The position numbers and the translations under genes are program-made. A stretch of 50,809 bases of DNA from sequence record NC_136442.1, one strand, 5' to 3'. The notes under the pieces were generated by a model. It did no database searches, was not told the origin of the DNA, and was given only the letters and a program-made list of their open reading frames with translations. Positions 1 to 43,502 of this stretch are shown piece after piece. Positions within the stretch are counted from its first letter, which is position 1; each line of letters starts with the position of its first letter. Source of the stretch: a phage.

Positions 1-127
1 CGGCGGTATCACTATCGACTCTATCGCAGAGCTTGAGGATATTGACGGCAAAGGTACGAAAGGTTGCTTGGTTTACGAAAAAGATCCAATGAACATGAGC
101 ATTGAGATTCCAGAAGCGTTTAACATG
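1..127. repeat. terminal duplication, identical to 50683-50809 (circular closure or assembly overlap)
   Basis: Exact 127-nt identity between window start and end, read directly. Confidence 0.95.
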
Positions 128-247
128 CTTCCGGCGCAGCCAAAAGACCTGCATTTCAAGGTTCCTTGCACTTCCAAGTGTACTGGCCTTACGATTTATC
201 GTCCGTTTACGATGGTGCTCATTACCGGCTTGAAAAAAGCTGAGTAA
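1..247 (+). CDS. major capsid protein, C-terminal part (in-frame continuation of 49958..50809 across the junction; stop TAA 245-247)
   Basis: Frame continuity through the duplicated junction; position between head proteins and head-tail connector genes. Confidence 0.7.
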   Translation, partial: GGITIDSIAELEDIDGKGTKGCLVYEKDPMNMSIEIPEAFNMLPAQPKDLHFKVPCTSKCTGLTIYRPFTMVLITGLKKAE

Positions 248-258
248 TTAGATAACAT

Positions 259-287
259 GGGGAGCCTTAAGGGTTCCCCTTTTTTAT
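259..287 (+). terminator. intrinsic terminator after major capsid gene
   Basis: GGGGAGCC-TTAA-GGGTTCCCC hairpin followed by TTTTTTATTT. Confidence 0.7.
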
Positions 288-303
288 TTATGGAGTACAC
301 AAA

Positions 304-570
304 ATGAGCAAAAATTTAAAACTTAAAGTAACTGGCGTTTGCATGATTATTATGGACGGTAAGCGTTATCATCCTGGTGATGAAATTGAAATTGAATCTG
401 AACGCATTAATGATTCCGCAGTTGAATACCTGATCGCTCGCGGTGATGTGGAAGTTAAAGACAATTCCGAAATTAACGAGCAAATCAAGGCGAAAGCGGA
501 GAAGAAGCGCAAAAAAGATCCTACCGAGGGCAAGAGCCGCAAAGAGCTAGAGGACGGCGGCGAATATTAA
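304..570 (+). CDS. hypothetical protein (88 aa, lysine-rich C-terminus)
   Basis: ORF with GGAG RBS 8 nt upstream; located in head/neck module. Confidence 0.6.
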
Positions 571-616
571 TAATTGGGGCGCTTATGCGCCCTTTGTCAC
601 ATCTGGAGAAAACAAA

Positions 617-1036
617 ATGGTAGATGAATTTTACACAGACGCTGAAATCATGCAGCAAATCGTAAAGTTAGCGCCGCCAATGCAACAAGTTGATCCCGAT
701 TTAATTGTGGCATGGATTGAGCTTGCTAAAGAATTTGTTTGCAAAAAACGGTTTAAAAACTCATACCCGAAAGCGGTTGCGCTTTACACTCTTCACCTTA
801 TGACCTTAGACGGGGCAATGAAACAGGAAGGTGAAAGCGTAGAAAGCTATTCCCGCCGCGTTTCCTCGTTCACTCTGACTGGTGAGTTTAGTCAGACGTT
901 TGATCGAATTTCTTCCGATACAAGCGGAAAGCAGATCCGACAAACGCCGTGGGGCAAAATGTACGAAGTGTTAAACCGTAAGCACGGTGGCGGCTTTGGC
1001 CTTGTGACTGGATTGCGCCGGAGATGCTGCCGATGA
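617..1036 (+). CDS. head-tail connector protein (gp6-like adaptor)
   Basis: 139-aa ORF, GGAG RBS, size and position typical of siphovirus head-tail adaptor. Confidence 0.55.
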
Positions 1037-1404
1037 ACTACAATGAGATTGCAAGAATGGCTACTGCTGGGATTAAATTTTTCAGCGACGCTAACGGTAT
1101 GTTTAAGTGCATCACGCAGCAGGGAGGGGTTGAGATTATCGGCGGGGAGGAAGTTACCAAGCCGGAGATTTCAGTGATGATAAAGGGGCTTGTTAGATCT
1201 CCGAGGACTAGAGAGGTTGACGGTGAAACAATCCGAGTAACCGACAAGTTGGGGATATTCACCAATGAAACTGAGATCAAAAATGGTTATCAGATTGAAA
1301 TTGATGGCGAACGTTATGTTGTCGTTGAAGCAAGACCAGTCAGGCAGACTAACATCACGGCGGCTTATCGTCCGATATTAAGGAGGATTGCTGTGCATGG
1401 CTGA
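1033..1404 (+). CDS. putative head-tail joining / head closure protein
   Basis: ATGA start-stop overlap with upstream gene; neck module synteny. Confidence 0.5.
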
Positions 1405-1840
1405 TAATTATAAGATCAGGGAATTTCACGGTGATATAAGCAGGTGGATTGATTCAGTAAGCAGCGGCCTTGTTGATTGCGTTGAAATGTTCGCGACAAA
1501 CGTCCACGAGGATCTTGTAAATCGCTCGCCAGTTGATACGGGCCGATATAAAGCCAACTGGCAGATAACAGCAAACAAGCCGCCGCTATATGCGCTCAAC
1601 CAATACGATCGCGATGGTGGTAAAACCATTGCAGAAGGTAAGCGAGCAATATATGCAATCATGCGTGGCGGTGGCGCGGTGCGGTCAATCTATTTTTCAA
1701 ACATGCTCATTTACGCCAACGCGCTTGAATACGGGCATTCAAAACAAGCGCCGTCAGGCGTACTTGGAATCGTGGCGGTAAAGCTGCGATCTTATATGGC
1801 TAAGGCAATAAAGGATTCGAGGGCAAAAAATGCACTATGA
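1397..1840 (+). CDS. HK97 gp10-like neck/tail component
   Basis: C-terminal NMLIYANALEYGHS resembles the HK97 gp10 family signature; AGGAGG RBS upstream. Confidence 0.55.
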   Translation: MADNYKIREFHGDISRWIDSVSSGLVDCVEMFATNVHEDLVNRSPVDTGRYKANWQITANKPPLYALNQYDRDGGKTIAEGKRAIYAIMRGGGAVRSIYFSNMLIYANALEYGHSKQAPSGVLGIVAVKLRSYMAKAIKDSRAKNAL

Positions 1841-2231
1841 TTTAATGTTGGCGGCAAGAAAGGCGCTGGCGGCTGAATATGAATCACAATTTAAGATAGC
1901 CTATGAAAACGTTGATTTTGTGCCGCCTGGAGATGGTTCTATGTGGTTAAAATTTAACTACATGGAAGCAGACACGGATCGCATATCTCTTGATAGAAAA
2001 TGTGTTTCTTATATCGGTTTGGTTCAGGTTGGGATTGTTATTCCTCCTGGCGGTGGCACTGATAAAGCGCGTTTGCTGGCTAAAGAGATTGCGAGATTTT
2101 TCTATGATGGTAGAATGCTTGAAACTGGCTATATTAGCGAGGGGGCAAACGTCCACGCATTACTAAAAAGTGAAACAGGTTGGTTCTTGCCGATCCGTTT
2201 CAGTGTTAGGCTTGATACAAAGGAGGAATAA
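1830..2231 (+). CDS. putative tail terminator / tail completion protein
   Basis: 133-aa ORF immediately upstream of major tail gene; synteny. Confidence 0.5.
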   Translation: MHYDLMLAARKALAAEYESQFKIAYENVDFVPPGDGSMWLKFNYMEADTDRISLDRKCVSYIGLVQVGIVIPPGGGTDKARLLAKEIARFFYDGRMLETGYISEGANVHALLKSETGWFLPIRFSVRLDTKEE

Positions 2232-2233
2232 TC

Positions 2234-2896
2234 ATGCACTTGCCTAATGGTTCTCAAATTTTCATCGGCGTTAATATGGGTGATCCGATTCAGGCTACGG
2301 CTATTTCAAATGCTGATGATCCTGTTTTTACTACTGACAATACTCAAAATATTGAGAAGGGCGCTTATGTTCTTATTGAAACATCTTCCTGGGGAAAACT
2401 TGTTAGTCGAGTCCTTCGAGTAAAGGAAGTAACTAGCAATCAAAGTGTTACTCTTGAGGGTGTAAGCACGAAAGACACCAATGTGTTTCCTGCTGGTTCT
2501 AATACAGCAACCTTCCGAGAAGTAAAATCATGGGTAGAGATTCCTTGCGTACAGGATCTTGCGCAGGACGGCGGCGAGCAACAGTATTACACTTATCAGT
2601 GTTTGGCTGACGACCAGGAGCAGCAGTTACCGACCTATAAGAGCGCCGTTTCTCTTACCTACACTTTCGCGCATGAATATGATAATCCGATTTATCCGAT
2701 CTTACGCGAGGCTGAGGAATCCGGCGACGTAACCGCTTTGCGTATGTACGTTCCGAAAGCTAAAGAGATGCGTTGCTGGGCTGGCGTATTGTCTTTTAAT
2801 GACATTCCGCAAACCACTATGAACGAAATGGAAACTGTTTCCCTTTCCGTATCTCTGAAAGGTCGATTCACGTTCTTACCTTCTGACGTTAAGTAA
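2234..2896 (+). CDS. major tail protein
   Basis: Strong RBS AAGGAGGA, 220 aa, followed by strong terminator, immediately upstream of the G/GT chaperone and tape measure. Confidence 0.7.
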   Translation: MHLPNGSQIFIGVNMGDPIQATAISNADDPVFTTDNTQNIEKGAYVLIETSSWGKLVSRVLRVKEVTSNQSVTLEGVSTKDTNVFPAGSNTATFREVKSWVEIPCVQDLAQDGGEQQYYTYQCLADDQEQQLPTYKSAVSLTYTFAHEYDNPIYPILREAEESGDVTALRMYVPKAKEMRCWAGVLSFNDIPQTTMNEMETVSLSVSLKGRFTFLPSDVK

Positions 2897-19831: not shown

Positions 19832-20308
19832 TTAGCTATTCGTGCTGTTATCACCTTTGTAGAATCGTCCGCCTGGTTCGTAGTCTGAATTTTTGACTAC
19901 GCGCAACATTTCGTATTTGTCGCAACGGGTAGTAAGAGGCTTGCCGTTAGAATCAAACCGCAGATCTGGACGACAAAACGAGGCGCGGTATCCTTTGCAT
20001 CCATTATATTTGTAGTCGTTATGCACCTTTTGTGCTCCAGCGGCTGAAATCATACCACGCTTTCGCCACTGGTTAACGACTTGCTGAGATACGCGCAGAC
20101 GTCGAGCCATAGCAGGAACACCGCCGTAATACTCGATCAGAATGTCAAGGCGAGATTTTAGGCTTGCTTTTACCTCATCTCGCAGGATAAGAAATCCGGT
20201 TCGGTGTTTTCGTGGCTTTTTGTCTTTACCTCGTCGCGTTCCGTTGTTACCGTTAATAGTGCGCTTGTCGATCTCACCCGTAGACACTGCAATTCGTGCA
20301 TCTTTCAT
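19832..20308 (-). CDS. basic HTH DNA-binding protein (Cro/YdaS-like helix-turn-helix)
   Basis: GGVPAMARRLRVSQQVVNQWRKRG helix-turn-helix-like segment; arginine/lysine-rich N-terminus. Confidence 0.55.
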   Translation of the reverse strand: MKDARIAVSTGEIDKRTINGNNGTRRGKDKKPRKHRTGFLILRDEVKASLKSRLDILIEYYGGVPAMARRLRVSQQVVNQWRKRGMISAAGAQKVHNDYKYNGCKGYRASFCRPDLRFDSNGKPLTTRCDKYEMLRVVKNSDYEPGGRFYKGDNSTNS

Positions 20309-22393: not shown

Positions 22394-22812
22394 TGGCTAT
22401 AACTGATAAAGGCGATTATCTTGAGTTTTACGAAAGGGATCCAACCGACACGAGAAGGGAAGTTAATCACCAGATAGATAGTTTTCAGTGGTTGACTTAT
22501 GCTCATCCTTATTTGCTGGCGTGGCATACGGTAAACGAGAATGAGAAGTCTAAAGCAACGGCGATGATTGATCAGCAGTCCGGCTTGGTTAAGGGAGTAA
22601 GCGATTTCATCATCCTGATTGGTTTAAACGGAAAATACCCCTTTGCAGCGATTGAGATCAAACGAGTGAATAAATCAGGCAAGGGGAAAGCATCACCAGT
22701 CAGCGATGAACAAAAGGCTTTTTTGCGTCGCGTTCGCAGCTTAGGAGGATTCGCTGCGGTAGCCTACGGATTCAATCAGTTTAAGTTGGCTATTGAATAC
22801 ATGCTTAAATAG
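22393..22812 (+). CDS. VRR-NUC domain nuclease
   Basis: GVSDF...IEIK PD-(D/E)XK-type motif in a roughly 140-aa protein after the helicase. Confidence 0.55.
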   Translation: MAITDKGDYLEFYERDPTDTRREVNHQIDSFQWLTYAHPYLLAWHTVNENEKSKATAMIDQQSGLVKGVSDFIILIGLNGKYPFAAIEIKRVNKSGKGKASPVSDEQKAFLRRVRSLGGFAAVAYGFNQFKLAIEYMLK

Positions 22813-22852
22813 CACTTTTTGTTAAAACTGGCGCGATGGATTGCGCCATAAT
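22809..22852 (+). promoter_or_regulatory. motif-type promoter cassette (motif, hairpin spacer, CATAAT) upstream of dam
   Basis: Consensus motif 22809-22828; inverted repeat GGCGCGATGGATTGCGCC in spacer; hexamer 22847-22852. Confidence 0.6.
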
Positions 22853-23622: not shown

Positions 23623-23880
23623 ATGAAAAAAGAGAGAAGCGTTTATTTAAATGAAACTGGCGAATGGTTGTTATTTCGCGCTATGGTGTGCGATGCACTT
23701 GATAAAAATCCTAACGTGAAAAAGATGATTGATTGCGATCCGTGGGAATTTTCAAGCGCATTAGATATGAGCTTTGAGGAGACAAAAAAACTCCCGCTTG
23801 AAAAATGGCACGAACAAATCAGAAATGACATGCAAGAGTTTGTCGATTCGTGGAATTTTCAGCACGGAATGATCCACTAA
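23623..23880 (+). CDS. hypothetical protein (85 aa)
   Basis: ORF with GGAG RBS; stop overlaps next motif. Confidence 0.55.
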   Translation: MKKERSVYLNETGEWLLFRAMVCDALDKNPNVKKMIDCDPWEFSSALDMSFEETKKLPLEKWHEQIRNDMQEFVDSWNFQHGMIH

Positions 23881-23923
23881 TAGCACTTTTTGTTAAAACG
23901 CCCGACCTAGTGTCGGGCATAAT
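23880..23923 (+). promoter_or_regulatory. motif-type promoter cassette (motif, hairpin GCCCGACCTAGTGTCGGGC, CATAAT)
   Basis: Read directly. Confidence 0.6.
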
Positions 23924-29932: not shown

Positions 29933-29976
29933 ATTATGCCAGGTTTTTACACCTGGCTTTTAACAAAAAGTGCTAT
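29933..29976 (-). promoter_or_regulatory. motif-type promoter cassette (motif, hairpin CCAGGTGTAAAAACCTGG, CATAAT)
   Basis: Read on minus strand. Confidence 0.6.
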
Positions 29977-31455: not shown

Positions 31456-31737
31456 TTATACGATCCCAGTTACGTTAAAACTTACAGCCTTTGTTGCGCT
31501 AAATACATAAGCATCAACAGCGCCGCCAAATACACGAATTTTACCCTGGCCGTACTGCGCATTCATATTTCGCCAAACCGTTCTATTAGAGCAGAATGCG
31601 CTACCAGTCTTAATAAGCGTATCCATCTCTTTTCTTAGATCGCGATAGTCCAGCCAGAATCTAAAGGCACGCTGTTTAATTCGCGCCGCCTTGATTTTTT
31701 CTCTTGCGCTATTGAAATCATTCTTTTCGTATGCCAT
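31456..31737 (-). CDS. hypothetical protein (93 aa)
   Basis: TAATG overlap with upstream gene. Confidence 0.5.
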   Translation of the reverse strand: MAYEKNDFNSAREKIKAARIKQRAFRFWLDYRDLRKEMDTLIKTGSAFCSNRTVWRNMNAQYGQGKIRVFGGAVDAYVFSATKAVSFNVTGIV

Positions 31738-31934
31738 TAAATGATCTCCATGTATGTTTCAAAGCCATTTAACTTGAACAGGCCGTTTTCACATTTGCGC
31801 ACGTTCCAAGTTAGCCCTGAGTGGTACGCCTCCATATCATCAAGGTCAATGGTGATTTCAGCACCTTTCTTAAACAAACCTTTTTCGTGAGACTTGTCGC
31901 GCTTAACAACTTTAACATCAACCTGATTTTCCAT
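31737..31934 (-). CDS. hypothetical protein (65 aa)
   Basis: Start MENQVDV follows cassette leader ...CATCGACAACAAGCGAGGATTTAAAG. Confidence 0.55.
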   Translation of the reverse strand: MENQVDVKVVKRDKSHEKGLFKKGAEITIDLDDMEAYHSGLTWNVRKCENGLFKLNGFETYMEII

Positions 31935-31965: not shown

Positions 31966-32009
31966 AATATACCATTCAGGCGCACATCGTTTTTAACAAA
32001 AAGTGCTAT
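31966..32009 (-). promoter_or_regulatory. motif-type promoter cassette (motif with extra A, TATATT)
   Basis: Read on minus strand. Confidence 0.6.
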
Positions 32010-32471: not shown

Positions 32472-32515
32472 AATGTACAGGAATACGAGGATTGAGTTTT
32501 AACAAAAAGTGCTAT
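32472..32515 (-). promoter_or_regulatory. motif-type promoter cassette (consensus motif, 18 nt, TACATT)
   Basis: Read on minus strand; leader ACACGCATCGACAACGAA. Confidence 0.6.
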
Positions 32516-33469: not shown

Positions 33470-33741
33470 TACTTCTTGATCTCCTCACTGATAAATTTCA
33501 GCACCTGACGCAAGAAAACCTCGTTGTTGATAGTCGCTGGCAATTCTTCTTTCACTTCTTGCGGCAGATAGATATTGCCGTGCCAGGTCAAGCAATCGTA
33601 GTTGATACGATAAGAGCAAAGCCACTCGCAATCGTTATCTGCTTCCCAAATGCAGAGTTGCAGAACATCGCCAAAATCTTCAACAGTCAGATCCAGACCG
33701 TGACGCTTAGCGAAATTGAAAGTGGTTTTGCTGATGTTCAT
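33469..33741 (-). CDS. hypothetical protein (90 aa), first gene of the leftward early block
   Basis: Follows motif cassette; AGGAGA RBS. Confidence 0.6.
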   Translation of the reverse strand: MNISKTTFNFAKRHGLDLTVEDFGDVLQLCIWEADNDCEWLCSYRINYDCLTWHGNIYLPQEVKEELPATINNEVFLRQVLKFISEEIKK

Positions 33742-33775
33742 TGCTATCTCCTGAGCGGTTCGTTTCGATGTGTGT

Positions 33776-33819
33776 AATGTACCCGATCAGGTGGCCTGAG
33801 TTTTAACAAAAAGTGCTAT
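33776..33819 (-). promoter_or_regulatory. motif-type promoter cassette (consensus motif, 18 nt, TACATT)
   Basis: Read on minus strand; leader ACACACATCGAAACGAAC. Confidence 0.6.
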
Positions 33820-33850
33820 TTGACGGTTAGAGCCAGGATTGTGATCGAAA

Positions 33851-33938
33851 TAATCAGAAGTAATCATTCGTAATCAAATCACGTCAAAATGATGATTGCC
33901 TTTGCAAATTTGATGAGAAAAGTAATCACGTTTAATCA
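33851..33938. repeat. five TAATCA direct repeats phased at 10-bp intervals (33851, 33861, 33871, 33923, 33933)
   Basis: Read directly; helical phasing in a non-coding divergent region. Confidence 0.8.
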
Positions 33939-34358
33939 TTGGTTGCAGGGGAGATAGTGAAACATTCCCCTCTTGCCTCACTTTTCCGCCTGGCTGTCAG
34001 TGGTTGTTATGTTCCGTTCCCGCCTGTTCTTTTGTTGACCTTCCGCAAAATACGATAACAAAAAATAACAAACAATACCTATATAATACATTGAAAAATA
34101 AGGATTATTTATTTATATGTATCTATATATTCTCTTTTGTTATCTTGGTTATTGTGGTATTTGGTGGGGGTATATAGTTTTTGTGTATCTATATGTGTGT
34201 ATGGGTATGTAAGGGCATATATATCTATATGGCACTTTCCGCGAGAAAACTTCGATAACAATCAATGATAACATTGATTTATAAGGAAAAATAACGCCTA
34301 TATTGTTATTGTGCCACCATATAAAATTGATAAAACACGCGGGAACAAGAAAAAACAG

Positions 34359-34387
34359 TTGACACATTAAATAGCATTATTGATAAT
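34359..34387 (+). promoter_or_regulatory. consensus sigma70-type promoter TTGACA-17-GATAAT for the rightward early block
   Basis: Perfect -35, 17-nt spacer, -10 GATAAT, followed by AGGAGG RBS and ATG 34416. Confidence 0.7.
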
Positions 34388-34415
34388 GCCGACACCTAAC
34401 AACCAGGAGGCAGAA

Positions 34416-34880
34416 ATGAGCGAGCAATCATTCACTGACACGCTGCGCCGTGCAGCTATTATGCTGGCTAATGGCGAGGAAGAGACGATTAAGATTCCTG
34501 ACGCGTATTTGCAGGTCCACATGTTCGGCAAGAAGTCGGCAAGCAATCCGGCGGCCTACATTCGCCAGATCATGAGTCGAGTGCCAGAAGTCGCCGAGCG
34601 GGGGCGCGTATCCGTTACCCGTGGCGTTTACGGGCCGGAAGATGAAAACTTCGGTAGCACTTTCTACGAGGTGCGCATTGTTGAAGGCCGTCGCAAGGTT
34701 TACAACAAAGAGGCACTGGAAAGGGCAGTACGCCAGGCTAAGCGCAAAGTTGCAGAGGCGATCATTGATATGTCACCCAACCTGGCAAACTATGCGCCGG
34801 AAGAGTATGAAACATTATCAAAGGCCGTCGCTGACTTTCACGCGATGATCAAAAAAACTTTCCTGGAGGATGAGCAATGA
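34416..34880 (+). CDS. hypothetical protein (154 aa), first rightward early gene
   Basis: AGGAGG RBS 6 nt upstream; immediately downstream of the consensus promoter. Confidence 0.65.
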   Translation: MSEQSFTDTLRRAAIMLANGEEETIKIPDAYLQVHMFGKKSASNPAAYIRQIMSRVPEVAERGRVSVTRGVYGPEDENFGSTFYEVRIVEGRRKVYNKEALERAVRQAKRKVAEAIIDMSPNLANYAPEEYETLSKAVADFHAMIKKTFLEDEQ

Positions 34881-35137
34881 AAAAGGCGTTAATCGGTGTT
34901 TTGGTGGCAATGACACTCCTGACCGGATGCGAAAAGGCATCAGAATCAACGGTTGTCGTAGGCGTGGAGTCAGATTTCAAAGTCGGCCGCCTGTTCACTG
35001 TTGACGGATGCACAGCATACAGATTCTATGATAACGGTCGCGCGATCTATTACACCAATTGCAAAGGCGCAACGGATAGCACGTACAACAGCGGAAAGAA
35101 CGTAATGCACCAGCAAGTCACAACAGATATTAAATAG
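34877..35137 (+). CDS. lipoprotein (86 aa)
   Basis: Signal MKKALIGVLVAMTLLTGC with lipobox; ATGA overlap with upstream gene. Confidence 0.6.
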   Translation: MKKALIGVLVAMTLLTGCEKASESTVVVGVESDFKVGRLFTVDGCTAYRFYDNGRAIYYTNCKGATDSTYNSGKNVMHQQVTTDIK

Positions 35138-35177
35138 CACTTTTTGTTAAAACGCCAGGCGCAAAGCCTGGCATAAT
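35134..35177 (+). promoter_or_regulatory. motif-type promoter cassette (consensus motif, hairpin GCCAGGCGCAAAGCCTGGC, CATAAT)
   Basis: Read directly; leader AGCCTCATCGAAACGAGA then GAGGAA RBS. Confidence 0.65.
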
Positions 35178-35596: not shown

Positions 35597-35640
35597 ATAG
35601 CACTTTTTGTTAAAACTCAAAAACGACAACCAGGCATAAT
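35597..35640 (+). promoter_or_regulatory. motif-type promoter cassette (consensus motif, 18 nt, CATAAT)
   Basis: Read directly; leader contains hairpin GGGGCGGCACGGCGTCGCCC. Confidence 0.6.
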
Positions 35641-36662: not shown

Positions 36663-36815
36663 ATGGCTACCTGGATTTTGCTGATTCTTATGATTGATGG
36701 CGGCGTTGACCATATCGAAATGAATAGCCAGCAATCTTGCATTGAGGCACGAGAGCAGATCAAGAACAACAACAGGTTTTATGCGTACACTCACACGCTA
36801 TGTATTAAGAAATAG
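36663..36815 (+). CDS. hypothetical small hydrophobic protein (50 aa)
   Basis: GAGGTGAGAG RBS; stop TAG lies inside next motif; below ORF-track cutoff. Confidence 0.45.
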   Translation: MATWILLILMIDGGVDHIEMNSQQSCIEAREQIKNNNRFYAYTHTLCIKK

Positions 36816-36854
36816 CACTTTTTGTTAAAACTCAAATGTGGGGCCAGGTATAAT
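36812..36854 (+). promoter_or_regulatory. motif-type promoter cassette (consensus motif, TATAAT inside hairpin GGCCAGG...GGCC)
   Basis: Read directly. Confidence 0.6.
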
Positions 36855-36884
36855 GGCCTCACTTTCAACGAAGGAGATAAAACG

Positions 36885-37334: not shown

Positions 37335-38045
37335 ATGAAAAAATACACTTTCGAACTGTGGGGCAAGAAGTACGAATTTACGACAAGCAAGCCGATTGTT
37401 ATCGTTGACCTAGACGGCACACTATCGGACGGATCGCATCGTTTGCATTTGCTGCCAACTGAAAACTTGCACCTTACGGAATCGTGGCGCGAGTTTAACA
37501 GGGCCGCCGCCGGAGATTCACCTATTAAAAGCACTATCGCGGTTATTAACGGTTTATGGGTGTCGGGATTTGCCATCGTCATCTTGACCGGACGCAGCGA
37601 CGAGGTTCGCTATGAAACCTGCAAATGGTTGAATGAGAACGGCGTGAAGTTTGACGAAATCATCATGCGCCGCCATGAGGACAACCGAAAGGATACGGTT
37701 ATTAAAGAAGAAGCCTTGCGCGCTATTGGCCTGGACAACATTGTTTGCGCCTTTGACGATTCGCCGAACGTGGTTAAGCACTTCCGCAGCTTGGGGATCA
37801 CAACCTATCAGGTCACGGAATACGACAAGCCACACGCTCACATACAATCTCACGGCGTGGAATCAATCAAGATAACGAAGCGCGCCCGATTCGTTGGCAG
37901 CAAAGATAGCCTTGTCAATGCCAGCTTTACCAGAGGAATAGCCTATGACGTTGTTTCTTATCATGACAAGAGTTTTATAGTTCATGATGATTCTGGATGC
38001 GCCTGGTCATTCAATCATAGTGACGGCGATTTTGTTAATGCGTAA
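37335..38045 (+). CDS. HAD-superfamily phosphatase (nucleotidase or polynucleotide 3-phosphatase-like)
   Basis: Motif I VIVDLDGTLSDG (DxDGT) near the N-terminus; ATG at 37335 chosen over TTG at 37320. Confidence 0.55.
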   Translation: MKKYTFELWGKKYEFTTSKPIVIVDLDGTLSDGSHRLHLLPTENLHLTESWREFNRAAAGDSPIKSTIAVINGLWVSGFAIVILTGRSDEVRYETCKWLNENGVKFDEIIMRRHEDNRKDTVIKEEALRAIGLDNIVCAFDDSPNVVKHFRSLGITTYQVTEYDKPHAHIQSHGVESIKITKRARFVGSKDSLVNASFTRGIAYDVVSYHDKSFIVHDDSGCAWSFNHSDGDFVNA

Positions 38046-38088
38046 TAGCACTTTTTGTTAAAACATCTCAACGGGCTTGCGGTATAGT
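38045..38088 (+). promoter_or_regulatory. motif-type promoter cassette (consensus motif, 18 nt, TATAGT within hairpin GGGCTT...AAGCCC)
   Basis: Read directly; leader CATCAACAACAAACGAGGA. Confidence 0.6.
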
Positions 38089-40558: not shown

Positions 40559-40849
40559 ATGGCAAACAAAACTTACCGCAAACTACTGGTTAACGCTTTT
40601 GAAAATATCGCGCAGTGTAACAAGTGGAACGACTCTAAACACTCGCCAATCACAATGAAGCGCGCCGGATTCAAAAATGCTCGTTCATGGGCGCGAGCTT
40701 TCGCAGCTTGCTATATGCCGGATGGTGGACTAGGAGCGATGAACGAGTTTTTGATCAACATGATAGAGGAAGCTGCGCGAGATGATCGACCGCTGACACA
40801 GCGAGATTTTGATGATTTCGCGCGCGATGAGCTTTACTATCTGAGCTAA
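40559..40849 (+). CDS. hypothetical protein (96 aa)
   Basis: ORF ends at TAA adjacent to next motif. Confidence 0.55.
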   Translation: MANKTYRKLLVNAFENIAQCNKWNDSKHSPITMKRAGFKNARSWARAFAACYMPDGGLGAMNEFLINMIEEAARDDRPLTQRDFDDFARDELYYLS

Positions 40850-40892
40850 TAGCACTTTTTGTTAAAACTTCCGCAAGGGCATTTGGTAAAGT
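40849..40892 (+). promoter_or_regulatory. motif-type promoter cassette (consensus motif, 18 nt, TAAAGT within hairpin AGGGCA...TGCCCT)
   Basis: Read directly. Confidence 0.6.
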
Positions 40893-42974: not shown

Positions 42975-43502
42975 ATGGCTAAAAATGTTGAGCCTGCTGT
43001 AAAGGCATTAAATTTCAAAGAGTTATACAATAAAACTTATGGAGATATTGTTACGCTAAACAACCGCCACAAGTACACGCCGGAACAGGTTTTTGATATG
43101 GCGATCCGATATTTCACTTGGGCCGAAGAGAATCACATCCAGGCGGCTGAAACCGCTTCCTTTCAGGGTGACGTGTACGAGAGCAGAGTTTACAAGCCTC
43201 GCGTTTTCACGGTTAACGGATTCAGCTTGTATCTCGGCGTGACTGAGGCCGCCGTAAGCAAATGGCGTAAAGAGCCTGGATTCTGCGATGTGATGGAGTT
43301 TGTTGATAAAGTAATTTACGAGCAAAAATTCCAGCTTGCGGCAAATAACATGATTAATGCTGGGTTTATCGGTAAAGAGATCGGAGTAGAGAAGCCAGCA
43401 ACAGTGAGCGTCGAAGCGAGCGCGGCAGCTAATGCAAGCATTGACGCAGTAACTGCCGATGAGGTGAAAGAGGCTGTTATTGATATTCTGGAGCAACTTT
43501 AA
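42975..43502 (+). CDS. terS: terminase small subunit
   Basis: 175-aa ORF with AAGGAGG RBS directly upstream of the terminase large subunit, ATGA coupled. Confidence 0.65.
   Translation: MAKNVEPAVKALNFKELYNKTYGDIVTLNNRHKYTPEQVFDMAIRYFTWAEENHIQAAETASFQGDVYESRVYKPRVFTVNGFSLYLGVTEAAVSKWRKEPGFCDVMEFVDKVIYEQKFQLAANNMINAGFIGKEIGVEKPATVSVEASAAANASIDAVTADEVKEAVIDILEQL

What the first reader, a model, noticed from the sequence alone, without database searches (positions are those of the whole stretch)
33845..33940. Five TAATCA repeats phased at exactly 10-bp intervals in the divergent early control region
TAATCA occurs at 33851, 33861, 33871, 33923 and 33933, so every copy lies on the same face of the helix (spacings 10, 10, 52, 10). 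The array sits in a roughly 600-bp stretch without a convincing ORF, between the first leftward early gene (start 33741) and the rightward consensus promoter at 34359. Phased short direct repeats are typical of origin iterons, operator arrays for a phage regulator, or nucleoid-protein binding arrays. No ORF overlaps the array.
Basis: seen in the sequence. Interest (0 to 1): 0.7.

Follow-up and report, generated by a model that had tools for sequence, protein, structure and literature searches.

The report
Phased TAATCA repeats beside packaging site
Five in-phase copies of TAATCA in a T1-like coliphage are a real, conserved protein-docking array that lies right next to where related phages make the first cut for DNA packaging, so it is the best current candidate for the still undefined packaging-recognition (pac) signal of this phage group.

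Summary
TAATCA sits at 33851, 33861, 33871, 33923 and 33933, all on the + strand. No other hexamer in the window has more than one pair at exactly 10 bp, and 0 of 200 simulated genomes reached three.

The window is a Warwickvirus (Drexlerviridae, T1-like). The array lies in the 675-bp divergent intergenic region. It is invariant in 7 Warwickvirus sequences apart from one base. It is partly kept in Hanrivervirus, as one TAATCA plus an invariant TTAATCA-NN-TGATTAA palindrome with a free centre. That pattern fits protein recognition.

No promoter, RNA family, stable fold, IHF core or DnaA box lies in the array.

In relatives, the first packaging cut maps to the homologous spot, just after the lineage-specific repeat array and a purine-rich block. 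The evidence is PhageTerm data for MSK, the SU57 genome end, restriction mapping of TLS, and the T1 terminal-repeat annotation.

Best reading (about 0.45): the array is the recognition part of pac, bound by the P22-gp3-type small terminase. Rivals are a regulator array, origin iterons and a host factor.

In passing: the roughly 20 "21-nt repeats" of T1-like phages are perfect class II marbox (MarA/SoxS/Rob) promoters.

The parts
33851..33876 (+). Cluster 1: three TAATCA copies (33851, 33861, 33871) at exact 10-bp spacing. Units are aaaTAATCAg, aagTAATCAt and tcgTAATCAa.
   Evidence: Invariant in 7 Warwickvirus-type sequences. In Hanrivervirus only unit 1 stays TAATCA; units 2 and 3 are TAACAG and a variable AAATCA/AACTCA/AATTCA/AAGCCA.
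33877..33922 (.). 46-bp spacer between the clusters. It carries one inverted, degenerate copy (TGATTG, 33893-33898) and a TTGC-N4-GCAA mini-palindrome.
   Evidence: (I3). GATGATTG and TTGCAA resemble the repeat units of the T1, TLS and MSK arrays.
33923..33938 (+). Cluster 2: two TAATCA copies (33923, 33933), 10 bp apart.
   Evidence: There is one T>C change in copy 4 in one metagenomic relative (L198). The positional equivalent in Hanrivervirus is the palindrome TTAATCA-NN-TGATTAAC, invariant in 11 distinct sequences, while the central NN has 4 variants.
33836..33846 (+). GGATTGTGA motif with an overlapping GATC (Dam) site, immediately left of cluster 1.
   Evidence: GGATTGTGAG also occurs in Hanrivervirus (to the right of its cluster 1), and GATTGTGAG occurs in T1.
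33947..33975 (+). Purine-rich block AGGGGAGATAGTGAAA (33947-33962), which forms a weak hairpin with CCCCT (33967-33971). A block of this kind follows the repeat array in every lineage examined.
   Evidence: The equivalent blocks are GAGGGGATAGAGAAA (Hanrivervirus), GTGAGAGGGGGGATCTAGTG (T1), GAGTAGTGAGTGAGTAGAAA (TLS) and GTGGTGAGTGAGTGAATGAAAG (MSK and SU57).
33966..33985 (+). Predicted position of the first packaging cut (pac terminus). This is inferred only by positional analogy, with packaging running rightward.
   Evidence: The MSK PhageTerm terminus is 4 nt after its purine block, and the SU57 genome end is 17-18 nt further right (PMC8421802; PMC7718038). No data exist for this phage.
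33776..33819 (-). Leftward promoter. It consists of the marbox-like 19-mer ATAGCACTTTTTGTTAAAA (33819 to 33801), a 19-nt gap and the -10 TACATT (33781 to 33776). The predicted start is about 33769, and the first gene ATG is at 33741.
   Evidence: The consensus GCAHWWWWTGYYAAA is taken from PMC6900184.
42975..43502 (+). Small terminase gene (175 aa, Pfam GP3_package, homologous to P22 gp3). It is the proposed reader of the array and lies 9 kb downstream.
   Evidence: One search gives 30% identity to P22 gp3 by tblastn (E 1e-12).

Best explanation
The TAATCA array is the recognition half of the phage's pac site.

Proposed mechanism:
1. Late in infection, the oligomeric small terminase (P22-gp3 type, gene at 42975-43499) docks on the five in-phase hexamers. 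They span 88 bp, about the length of DNA that could wrap once around a TerS ring.
2. The bound TerS positions the large terminase to cut a few tens of bp to the right, after the purine-rich block, at about 33966-33985.
3. Headful packaging then runs rightward.

What is shown and what is inferred:
- Shown here: the array is real, unique in the genome and conserved.
- Shown in relatives: the first-headful terminus maps to the homologous spot, immediately after their equivalent repeat arrays.
- Inferred: that TerS is the protein that reads TAATCA, that the DNA wraps around it, and where the cut falls in this phage.
For: 1. The array is non-random and unique in the genome. That is expected for a single-copy cis site such as pac. 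It is not expected for a promoter-associated element: about 20 marbox promoters elsewhere in the window lack it.

2. The family architecture is conserved. In Warwickvirus, Hanrivervirus, T1, TLS, MSK and SU57 the order is leftward marbox promoter, about 130 bp of lineage-specific short repeats, purine-rich block, AT-rich region, rightward promoter.

3. Termini map to this position in relatives.
- MSK: PhageTerm gives a forward terminus at 36,862 (p 1.6e-9; PMC8421802). This is 147 bp right of the marbox element and 4 nt after the purine block.
- SU57: the genome end was chosen from PhageTerm plus a coverage step (PMC7718038). It falls 17-18 nt from the MSK position.
- TLS: the restriction-mapped pac is record position 1, inside a TGATTG/TGATTT/TGATTA array with 21, 10, 5 and 5-bp spacing (PMC11447400).
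- T1: the record annotates the terminal repeat as 1..2800, starting inside GATGTGATTGTTGC direct repeats.

4. The conservation pattern fits protein recognition. The hexamers are invariant in Warwickvirus. The Hanrivervirus palindrome has invariant half-sites and a variable centre.

5. No promoter, Rfam family or stable fold lies in the array.

6. From established knowledge rather than any test here: known pac and cos recognition sites are built this way. Examples are P1 pac (4 + 3 TGATCA/G hexamers flanking the cut), SPP1 pacL/pacR (phased boxes) and lambda cosB (R sites).
Against: - No terminus data exist for this phage or for any Warwickvirus or Hanrivervirus.
- The relatives with mapped termini (MSK, SU57, TLS) do not use TAATCA. 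TAATC/GATTA is not enriched in their intergenic regions.
- T1 does have the TAATC motif, but it is spread over the whole 700-bp region (11 copies), including three tandem copies just upstream of the rightward promoter. That looks more like a regulator or a nucleoprotein organiser.
- TerS identity does not track motif use. Identity to the window's TerS is 71% for Hanrivervirus, 57% for MSK, 54% for T1 and 51% for TLS.
- In Hanrivervirus, direct repeats are replaced by a 16-bp palindrome. This suggests a dimeric helix-turn-helix protein rather than a ring contacting successive direct repeats.
- The terS gene is 9 kb away, unlike in P22, SPP1 and P1.
- Similarity to the P22 pac sequence is not significant.
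- Many GenBank records that start near here simply copy the T1 orientation (PMC13164509), so they are not independent evidence.
Confidence: 0.45

Rival explanations
1. The array binds a phage-encoded regulator or architectural protein. Candidates are the immediate-early DUF7174 protein, the conserved Cro/YdaS-like HTH protein, or an unrecognised Cox/Apl/Xis-like small protein. The protein would polymerise on repeats one helical turn apart and control the divergent promoters or the early-to-late switch.
For: - Direct repeats one helical turn apart between divergent promoters are the known binding mode of Apl, Cox and Xis-type proteins (PMC7498355 abstract).
- The Hanrivervirus palindrome with a free centre fits a dimeric HTH protein.
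- In T1 the TAATC/GATTA copies cluster next to both promoters, including 3x CGATTAACA just upstream of the rightward -35.
- DUF7174 is the first of only two genes between the sole consensus promoter and the first rightward marbox promoter.
- A Cro/YdaS-like HTH protein is encoded at 19832-20308.
Against: - In the window the array overlaps no core promoter. It lies -82 to -169 from the predicted leftward start and about 420 bp from the rightward promoter.
- No TAATCA lies at the Cro-like gene's own promoter or at the rightward promoter.
- About 20 other marbox promoters work without such an array.
- Pfam finds no HTH, Xis or Cox domain in 28 small early ORFs.
- The DUF7174 fold matches are weak: the best Foldseek E is 0.025.
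- Neither DUF7174 nor the Cro-like protein co-varies with motif use.
Confidence: 0.25
2. The hexamers are iterons of the replication origin. An initiator encoded next door would bind them and help melt the AT-rich region to the right.
For: - A core of 15-18% GC (34050-34140) lies about 110-200 bp to the right.
- The cumulative GC skew has a local minimum near 32-34 kb.
Against: - A different repeat fits the iteron role better. TGTTAT/ATAACA has 7 copies in 34005-34309, against about 0.3 expected, arranged symmetrically around the AT-rich core. In Hanrivervirus there are 4 tandem copies at 9-10 bp.
- The TAATCA array is separated from the AT-rich core by the hairpin and by those repeats.
- 6-7-bp units at 10-bp spacing are unlike typical 17-22-bp iterons.
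- No DnaA box lies in the region.
- The skew follows transcription direction throughout the genome, so it is uninformative.
- DUF7174 has one winged-helix-like domain, not the two found in RepE and Pi.
Confidence: 0.12
3. The array is a site for a host protein. One possibility is an OmpR/PhoB-family response regulator such as CpxR (GTAAA-N5-GTAAA). Others are H-NS, or IHF-like bending factors that help packaging or transcription.
For: - GTAAT-N5-GTAAT occurs at 33860-33874, and related xTAAT-N5-xTAAT pairs occur in all clusters. Tandem 10-11-bp direct repeats are the binding mode of winged-helix response regulators; this comes from my own knowledge and was not tested.
- The Hanrivervirus palindrome matches the IHF core WATCAR-N4-TTR.
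Against: - The window's array has no IHF core match.
- Each copy differs from the CpxR half-site, and the conserved part of the repeat is TAATCA, not GTAA.
- There is no biological rationale and no supporting data.
- The array sequence differs between phages that share the same host.
Confidence: 0.08
4. The array has no sequence-specific function. It would be a recent local duplication or slippage product, or a source of intrinsic curvature, in a fast-evolving spacer.
For: The region between the marbox promoter and the purine block is a mosaic of different repeats in different lineages. Units 2 and 3 are degenerate in Hanrivervirus.
Against: Exact hexamers with diverged 4-bp spacers are not what a recent duplication leaves. 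The hexamers are invariant in Warwickvirus, and the half-sites are invariant across a variable centre in Hanrivervirus. The motif recurs in T1, from a different subfamily.
Confidence: 0.05

Closest known systems
Phage P1 pac site (seven TGATCA/G hexamers, 4 + 3, flanking the cleavage region and bound by PacA; from my own knowledge)
   Same: Two clusters of an identical short hexamer (3 + 2 here) separated by a spacer of a few tens of bp. Single copy in the genome. Adjacent to the position where the first packaging cut maps in relatives. A GATC site abuts cluster 1.
   Different: The hexamer itself carries no Dam site. The spacing is strictly 10 bp. The inferred cut lies to the right of both clusters rather than between them. 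The site is 9 kb from the terminase genes. TerS is of the P22-gp3 type, not PacA. Binding and cleavage are untested.
SPP1/SF6 pac (pacL-pacC-pacR, with phased boxes and bent DNA wrapped by the G1P ring) and lambda cosB (R sites plus IHF); from my own knowledge
   Same: Recognition by an oligomeric small terminase of several phased short sites next to, not at, the cut.
   Different: No A-tract bending signal. No IHF core in this phage. Different TerS fold family.
P22 pac (22 bp inside gene 3)
   Same: The TerS is a true homologue of P22 gp3 (Pfam GP3_package; 30% identity, E 1e-12).
   Different: P22 pac is a single asymmetric 22-mer inside terS. The array here has no significant similarity to it: local alignment score 6-7 against a genome-wide maximum of 12. 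It is also intergenic, 9 kb upstream of terS.
Apl (phage 186), Cox (P2) and Xis arrays
   Same: Direct repeats one helical turn apart in a region between divergent promoters (PMC7498355 abstract).
   Different: The array does not overlap either core promoter. The phage is virulent, with no att site or integrase. No Cox, Apl or Xis-like protein was detectable by Pfam.
Iteron origins (lambda ori, RepE/Pi plasmids)
   Same: Repeats near an AT-rich region and next to a gene whose product has a winged-helix-like domain.
   Different: The units are 6-7 bp at 10-bp spacing, not about 19-22 bp. A second repeat family (TGTTAT) sits closer to the AT-rich core. No DnaA boxes.

Membership tests
pac site of a headful-packaging phage | Mature-DNA terminus of the first headful maps at or next to the element | not testable with these tools
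   No virion read data exist for this phage. In relatives the homologous position carries the terminus: MSK PhageTerm 36,862 (PMC8421802), the SU57 genome end (PMC7718038), TLS restriction mapping (PMC11447400) and the T1 repeat_region 1..2800.
pac site of a headful-packaging phage | Single-copy cis element, unique in the genome | tested here: met
   No other TAATCA pair lies at 10 bp anywhere in the window, and the array is the densest AATCA/TGATT window in the genome.
pac site of a headful-packaging phage | Short repeated recognition motifs adjacent to the cleavage region (P1, SPP1 and lambda-cosB type) | tested here: met
   There are 3 + 2 identical hexamers. Lineage-specific repeat arrays occupy the same position in T1, TLS, MSK, SU57 and Hanrivervirus.
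pac site of a headful-packaging phage | Specific binding by the small terminase | not testable with these tools
   TerS was identified (42975-43499, GP3_package). The only indirect test, co-variation of TerS with the motif, was negative or uninformative.
Iteron-type replication origin | Array of direct repeats directly flanking an AT-rich unwinding element | tested here: not met
   The AT-rich core (34050-34140, 15-18% GC) is 110 bp or more away. It is flanked by a different repeat, TGTTAT/ATAACA, with 7 copies.
Iteron-type replication origin | Cognate initiator protein (two winged-helix domains, Rep_3/RepE-like) encoded nearby | tested here: inconclusive
   [not shown]
Iteron-type replication origin | DnaA boxes or IHF site in the origin | tested here: not met
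   No TTWTNCACA and no WATCARNNNNTTR match lies in 33742-34416.
Operator array of a Cox/Apl/Xis-type regulator | Direct repeats spaced one helical turn apart | tested here: met
   Spacings are 10, 10 and 10 bp within the clusters.
Operator array of a Cox/Apl/Xis-type regulator | Array overlaps or abuts the core promoter it controls | tested here: not met
   The array lies -82 to -169 from the predicted leftward start and about 420 bp from the TTGACA-17-GATAAT promoter. No promoter-like site lies inside it.
Operator array of a Cox/Apl/Xis-type regulator | Phage encodes the small winged-helix or HTH regulator | tested here: not met
   Pfam and PHROGs scans of 35 neighbouring and early ORFs found no Xis, Cox or HTH family. 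The only HTH is the Cro/YdaS-like protein at 19832-20308, and its own promoter lacks the motif. Sensitivity is limited to sequence profiles.
IHF binding site | Core WATCARNNNNTTR | tested here: not met
   There are nine matches in the window and none in 33742-34416. The Hanrivervirus palindrome does match.
Structured RNA or known RNA family | Rfam match or a fold more stable than shuffled sequence | tested here: not met
   The best Rfam E-values are 0.11 and 0.42, far below gathering scores. The fold z-score is -0.88.

The most novel reading that the evidence does not exclude
The five in-phase hexamers spread over 88 bp form a wrapping track for the ring-shaped P22-gp3-type small terminase, with one contact per subunit per helical turn. 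This would make the array the first sequence-defined pac recognition module of the T1 family.

The lineage-specific arrays at the same position (TAATCA, TGATTG/TGATTT, ATTGTTGCA-N-TGCAAT) would then be interchangeable specificity cassettes. They would set which DNA a Drexlerviridae phage packages, and therefore what it transduces.
Probability: 0.25. Interest if true: 0.6.

Novelty: new member of a known kind. Interest (0 to 1): 0.45.

Why it matters
The sequence that T1-like phages recognise to start packaging has never been defined. T1 pac was mapped genetically in the 1980s. The 2024 TLS paper assigned pac only by a 6-base resemblance to P22 (PMC11447400).

This work gives a concrete 90-bp candidate element and a predicted cut window of about 20 bp. 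It also gives a family-wide architecture: marbox promoter, repeat array, purine block, terminus. Together these make the question directly testable by termini sequencing, TerS footprinting and plasmid-transduction assays.

It also matters in practice. T1-like phages are generalised transducers, notorious laboratory and fermenter contaminants, and therapy candidates. Knowing pac helps with genome orientation, synthetic rebooting and transduction-risk assessment.

The by-product may matter more. If the roughly 20 marbox-type promoters really depend on host MarA, SoxS or Rob, the family's gene expression is wired to the host's antibiotic and stress regulon.

Tried and rejected
- **Genome-wide enrichment of TAATCA.** Not found: 47 against 36.5 expected. 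Only the clustering and phasing are unusual.
- **A promoter inside the array.** None by scan or by hand on either strand.
- **RNA element.** No Rfam family. Fold no better than shuffles.
- **IHF and DnaA sites.** None in the region.
- **Similarity to the P22 pac 22-mer,** prompted by TerS homology and the TLS paper. Not significant.
- **A family-wide TGATT/AATCA core motif.** The array region is the top window in the Warwickvirus genome and marginally so in MSK, but not in Hanrivervirus. TAATC/GATTA is enriched in T1 and Warwickvirus, not in TLS or MSK. There is no universal motif.
- **Identifying the reader protein by co-variation.** TerS, DUF7174 and the Cro-like HTH all follow phylogeny, not motif use. 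Uninformative.
- **Autoregulatory TAATCA at the Cro-like gene's promoter.** Absent.
- **GenBank record start points as evidence for pac.** Discounted, because many authors simply copy the T1 orientation.
- **Scans for more relatives.** The AT-rich 16-mer anchor in IMG/VR was unspecific. The 16-mer leader anchor gave 21 usable sequences from IMG/VR, metagenomes and GenBank.
- **A phage-encoded MarA homologue** for the marbox promoters. None found; the best tblastn E was 1.6, using a MarA sequence recalled from memory.
- **GC skew as an origin marker.** It follows transcription direction only.
- **Literature.** No termini data for Warwickvirus or Hanrivervirus. The T1 genome paper is not held in the library.
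Full report
**Observation.** The + strand carries TAATCA at 33851, 33861, 33871, 33923 and 33933.
- The hexamer is not enriched genome-wide: 47 copies on both strands against 36.5 +/- 6.4 in shuffles.
- Its arrangement is exceptional. It is the only hexamer in the 50.8-kb window with three pairs at exactly 10 bp; all others have at most one.
- None of 200 Markov-simulated genomes reached three.
- The array is the densest AATCA/TGATT window in the genome.
- 'Exactly 10 bp' holds within each cluster. The 52-bp gap is about five helical turns.
- The repeat extends to RTAATCA.
- Only a 35-codon GTG ORF on the other strand overlaps.

**Where it is.** The window is a near-complete genome of a T1-like phage of the genus Warwickvirus (Drexlerviridae, Tempevirinae). 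It is 98% identical to MikeNSara, atuna, tiwna and JK16 over this region.
- The array lies in the 675-bp divergent intergenic region. On the left is a leftward 90-aa gene (ATG 33741, phrog_6147). On the right is the rightward DUF7174 gene (ATG 34416).
- The rightward gene has a near-consensus sigma-70 promoter, TTGACA-17-GATAAT, at 34359-34387.
- The leftward gene is served by a copy of the '21-nt intergenic repeat' described for TLS and T1, aaATAGCACnnnTTGnTAAAA (PMC11447400). It lies at 33801-33819 on the - strand. After 19 nt comes the -10-like TACATT.
- Relative to the predicted start at about 33769, the array spans -82 to -169.
- Neither the scan nor hand inspection finds a promoter inside the array.
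- There is no Rfam family and no fold better than shuffled sequence (z -0.88).
- There is no IHF core and no DnaA box.
- The element therefore acts as double-stranded DNA, most plausibly as a protein-binding array.

**Conservation.** I collected the region from GenBank phages, IMG/VR and metagenomes by anchoring on the conserved leader, not on the array.
- In 7 Warwickvirus-type sequences all five hexamers are invariant except one T>C in copy 4. The few variable sites in the array fall in the spacers. Overall divergence is low, so this is weak on its own.
- The 11 distinct Hanrivervirus-type sequences, which are 67-69% identical over the region, are more telling.
  - Unit 1 is kept as TAATCA. 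It is embedded in a larger inverted structure, TATTCCAT x2 / TAATCA / GGAATAA x2.
  - Units 2 and 3 are degenerate.
  - Cluster 2 is replaced by the palindrome TTAATCA-NN-TGATTAAC. Its half-sites never vary, while the central dinucleotide has four variants.
- Invariant half-sites around a free centre are the classic signature of sequence-specific protein contacts.
- The inter-cluster distance (72 against 69 bp) and the orientation of the last copy are not conserved. Strict same-face phasing of all five copies is therefore probably not essential.

**Family-wide architecture and the packaging site.** Every lineage I looked at has the same order of elements: leftward marbox promoter, about 130 bp of short repeats, a purine-rich block, an AT-rich region, then the rightward promoter and a DUF7174-type gene.

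The repeats differ by lineage:
- Warwickvirus and Hanrivervirus: TAATCA.
- T1: GATGTGATTGTTGC x2 around a GTTGCA-N5-TGCAAC palindrome, plus GGAATA repeats and one TAATCA.
- TLS: TGATTG, TGATTT and TGATTA at 21, 10, 5 and 5-bp spacing, plus two AGACCGATTGGTCT palindromes and three GATC sites.
- MSK and SU57: three copies of a 20-nt unit, ATTGTTGCA-N-TGCAAT.

This position is where the first packaging cut has been mapped:
- For MSK, PhageTerm reports a forward terminus at 36,862 (p 1.6e-9; PMC8421802). In the sequence this is 147 bp right of the marbox element and 4 nt after the purine block.
- For SU57, the authors fixed the genome end from PhageTerm plus an abrupt coverage change (PMC7718038). 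The record ends 17-18 nt to the right of the MSK position in homologous sequence.
- For TLS, restriction mapping put pac at what became record position 1, inside its repeat array (PMC11447400).
- The T1 record annotates the 2.8-kb terminal repeat as starting at position 1, also inside its array.
- Other records that start near here mostly copy the T1 orientation (PMC13164509), so I do not count them.

By positional analogy, the cut in this phage would fall at about 33966-33985, some 30-50 bp right of the last TAATCA, with packaging proceeding rightward.

**Best explanation.** The array is the recognition part of pac, read by the small terminase. That gene is at 42975-43499. The protein belongs to Pfam GP3_package and is homologous to P22 gp3.
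- The design fits what is known of pac and cos recognition in P1, SPP1 and lambda: several identical short sites, in phase, in two clusters, single copy, next to rather than at the cut. That comparison rests on my knowledge of those systems, not on a test here.
- The 88-bp span with one contact per turn would suit DNA wrapped around a TerS ring. This is inference.
- I put this reading at 0.45. The region very probably holds pac. Whether TAATCA is what TerS reads is roughly even odds.

**What argues against it.**
- No termini are known for any TAATCA-bearing phage.
- The phages with mapped termini do not use the motif.
- In T1, TAATC/GATTA is enriched about six-fold over the whole 700-bp region: 11 copies against 2.5 per kb outside. 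Three tandem CGATTAACA units lie just upstream of the rightward -35. That looks regulatory.
- TerS identity follows phylogeny, not motif use (71% Hanrivervirus, 57% MSK, 54% T1, 51% TLS).
- The Hanrivervirus palindrome suggests a dimeric HTH protein.
- The P22 pac 22-mer has no significant counterpart here.

**Rivals.**
- *Phage regulator or architectural protein (0.25).* 10-bp direct repeats between divergent promoters recall Apl, Cox and Xis arrays (PMC7498355).
  - Candidates are DUF7174 and the conserved Cro/YdaS-like HTH protein (19832-20308).
  - Against: the array overlaps no promoter. No motif copy sits at either candidate's own promoter. Pfam finds no Xis, Cox or HTH domain among 28 small early ORFs.
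- *Origin iterons (0.12).* The AT-rich core (15-18% GC) is flanked by a different repeat, TGTTAT/ATAACA: seven copies in 305 bp against about 0.3 expected. In Hanrivervirus there are four tandem copies at 9-10 bp. If the origin is here, those are the iterons.
- *Host factor (0.08).* GTAAT-N5-GTAAT resembles CpxR half-sites. The conserved core is TAATCA, and phages that share the host use different arrays.
- *No specific function (0.05).* This is contradicted by the conservation pattern.

**Comparison with known systems and novelty.** Functionally the closest analogue is the P1 pac site, followed by SPP1 pac and lambda cosB. Formally the repeat geometry also matches Cox/Apl arrays.
- Membership in 'pac site' cannot be settled without termini and TerS binding.
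- The testable features (uniqueness, repeat architecture, homologous position of termini in relatives) are met.
- Features of iteron origins and operator arrays that could be tested were mostly not met.
- Nothing in the searchable literature describes these arrays. The TLS paper assigns pac by a 6-base match to P22 and does not mention them.
- I rate this a new member of a known kind, of moderate interest (0.45).

**Noticed in passing: marbox promoters.** This is potentially more important than the finding itself.
- The T1-family '21-nt repeat', whose function the TLS authors list as an open question, occurs about 20 times in the window: 22 hits at up to 3 mismatches against 3.0 expected.
- It always points toward the downstream genes. 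It is followed after 18-19 nt by a -10 hexamer (CATAAT, TATAAT, TATATT, TACATT or TATAGT), with no properly spaced -35.
- Its core, GCACTTTTTGTTAAA, is a perfect match to the marbox consensus GCAHWWWWTGYYAAA (PMC6900184). There are 18 strict matches in the window, against my estimate of about 0.02 expected by chance.
- It is in the forward orientation and centred near -40. That is the definition of a class II MarA/SoxS/Rob-dependent promoter (PMC12052159).
- The window encodes no MarA homologue.
- No paper in the library links Drexlerviridae or phage promoters to marboxes.

Noticed in passing
window, about 20 sites, e.g. 33801-33819(-), 35134-35152(+), 35597-35615(+), 36812-36830(+), 38045-38063(+), 40849-40867(+), 32497-32515(-), 31991-32009(-), 29958-29976(-), 22809-22827(+), 23880-23898(+): The T1-family '21-nt intergenic repeat' (ATAGCACTTTTTGTTAAAA; function stated as unknown in PMC11447400) matches the marbox consensus GCAHWWWWTGYYAAA perfectly. 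It is in forward orientation, and a -10 hexamer follows after exactly 18-19 nt with no -35. This is class II MarA/SoxS/Rob promoter geometry. There are 18 strict matches against my estimate of about 0.02 expected by chance. It also occurs in Hanrivervirus E6 (13 strict matches) and MSK (3). The window encodes no MarA homologue. This suggests that T1-like middle and late transcription depends on host Rob, MarA or SoxS, or on an unrelated phage mimic. No publication was found in the library.
   Followed up: partly
window 33990-34340: An origin-like module. There are seven TGTTAT/ATAACA copies (34005+, 34055-, 34065-, 34138+, 34255-, 34268-, 34304+), against about 0.3 expected, arranged symmetrically around a core of 15-18% GC (34050-34140) that carries three TATCTATAT repeats. 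The module is bracketed by a 24-nt imperfect inverted repeat (34005-34028 / 34334-34357). In Hanrivervirus there are four tandem TGTTAT copies at 9-10 bp. The core AAATAAGGATTATTTATTTATATGTATCTATA is nearly invariant across genera.
   Followed up: partly
window 34374-34389: A perfect 7-bp inverted repeat, GCATTAT-TG-ATAATGC, overlaps the -10 (GATAAT, 34382-34387) of the only consensus sigma-70 promoter in the region. It looks like an operator for shutting off the immediate-early transcript. It is not conserved as a palindrome in Hanrivervirus.
   Followed up: no
[not shown]
   Followed up: partly
L007 1-538 and L008 1676-1837 (phage T1 NC_005833): T1's homologous 700-bp intergenic region holds 11 TAATC/GATTA copies, against 2.5 per kb in flanking DNA. 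They include GATTACGATTACG next to a second leftward marbox element and three tandem CGATTAACA units just upstream of the rightward -35. T1 has two tandem leftward marbox promoters about 210 bp apart.
   Followed up: partly
L260 1063-1090 (MSK) versus L266 end / L265 start (SU57): Homology between the two Braunvirinae phages breaks exactly at the SU57 genome end, within about 18 nt of the MSK PhageTerm terminus. This is either a recombination junction at pac or an artefact of linearising the SU57 assembly.
   Followed up: no
L010 775-813 and 845-880 (phage TLS, just left of its mapped pac): There are two tandem 14-bp near-palindromes, AGACCGATTGGTCT, and a cluster of three GATC sites within 30 bp. 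This recalls Dam-regulated pac cleavage in P1. T1-like phages encode their own Dam methylase.
   Followed up: no
window 31737-31934 (-): A 65-aa protein matches Pfam PF25180, 'Phage antiviral trigger protein Gp54' (E 1.7e-38), among the leftward small genes.
   Followed up: no
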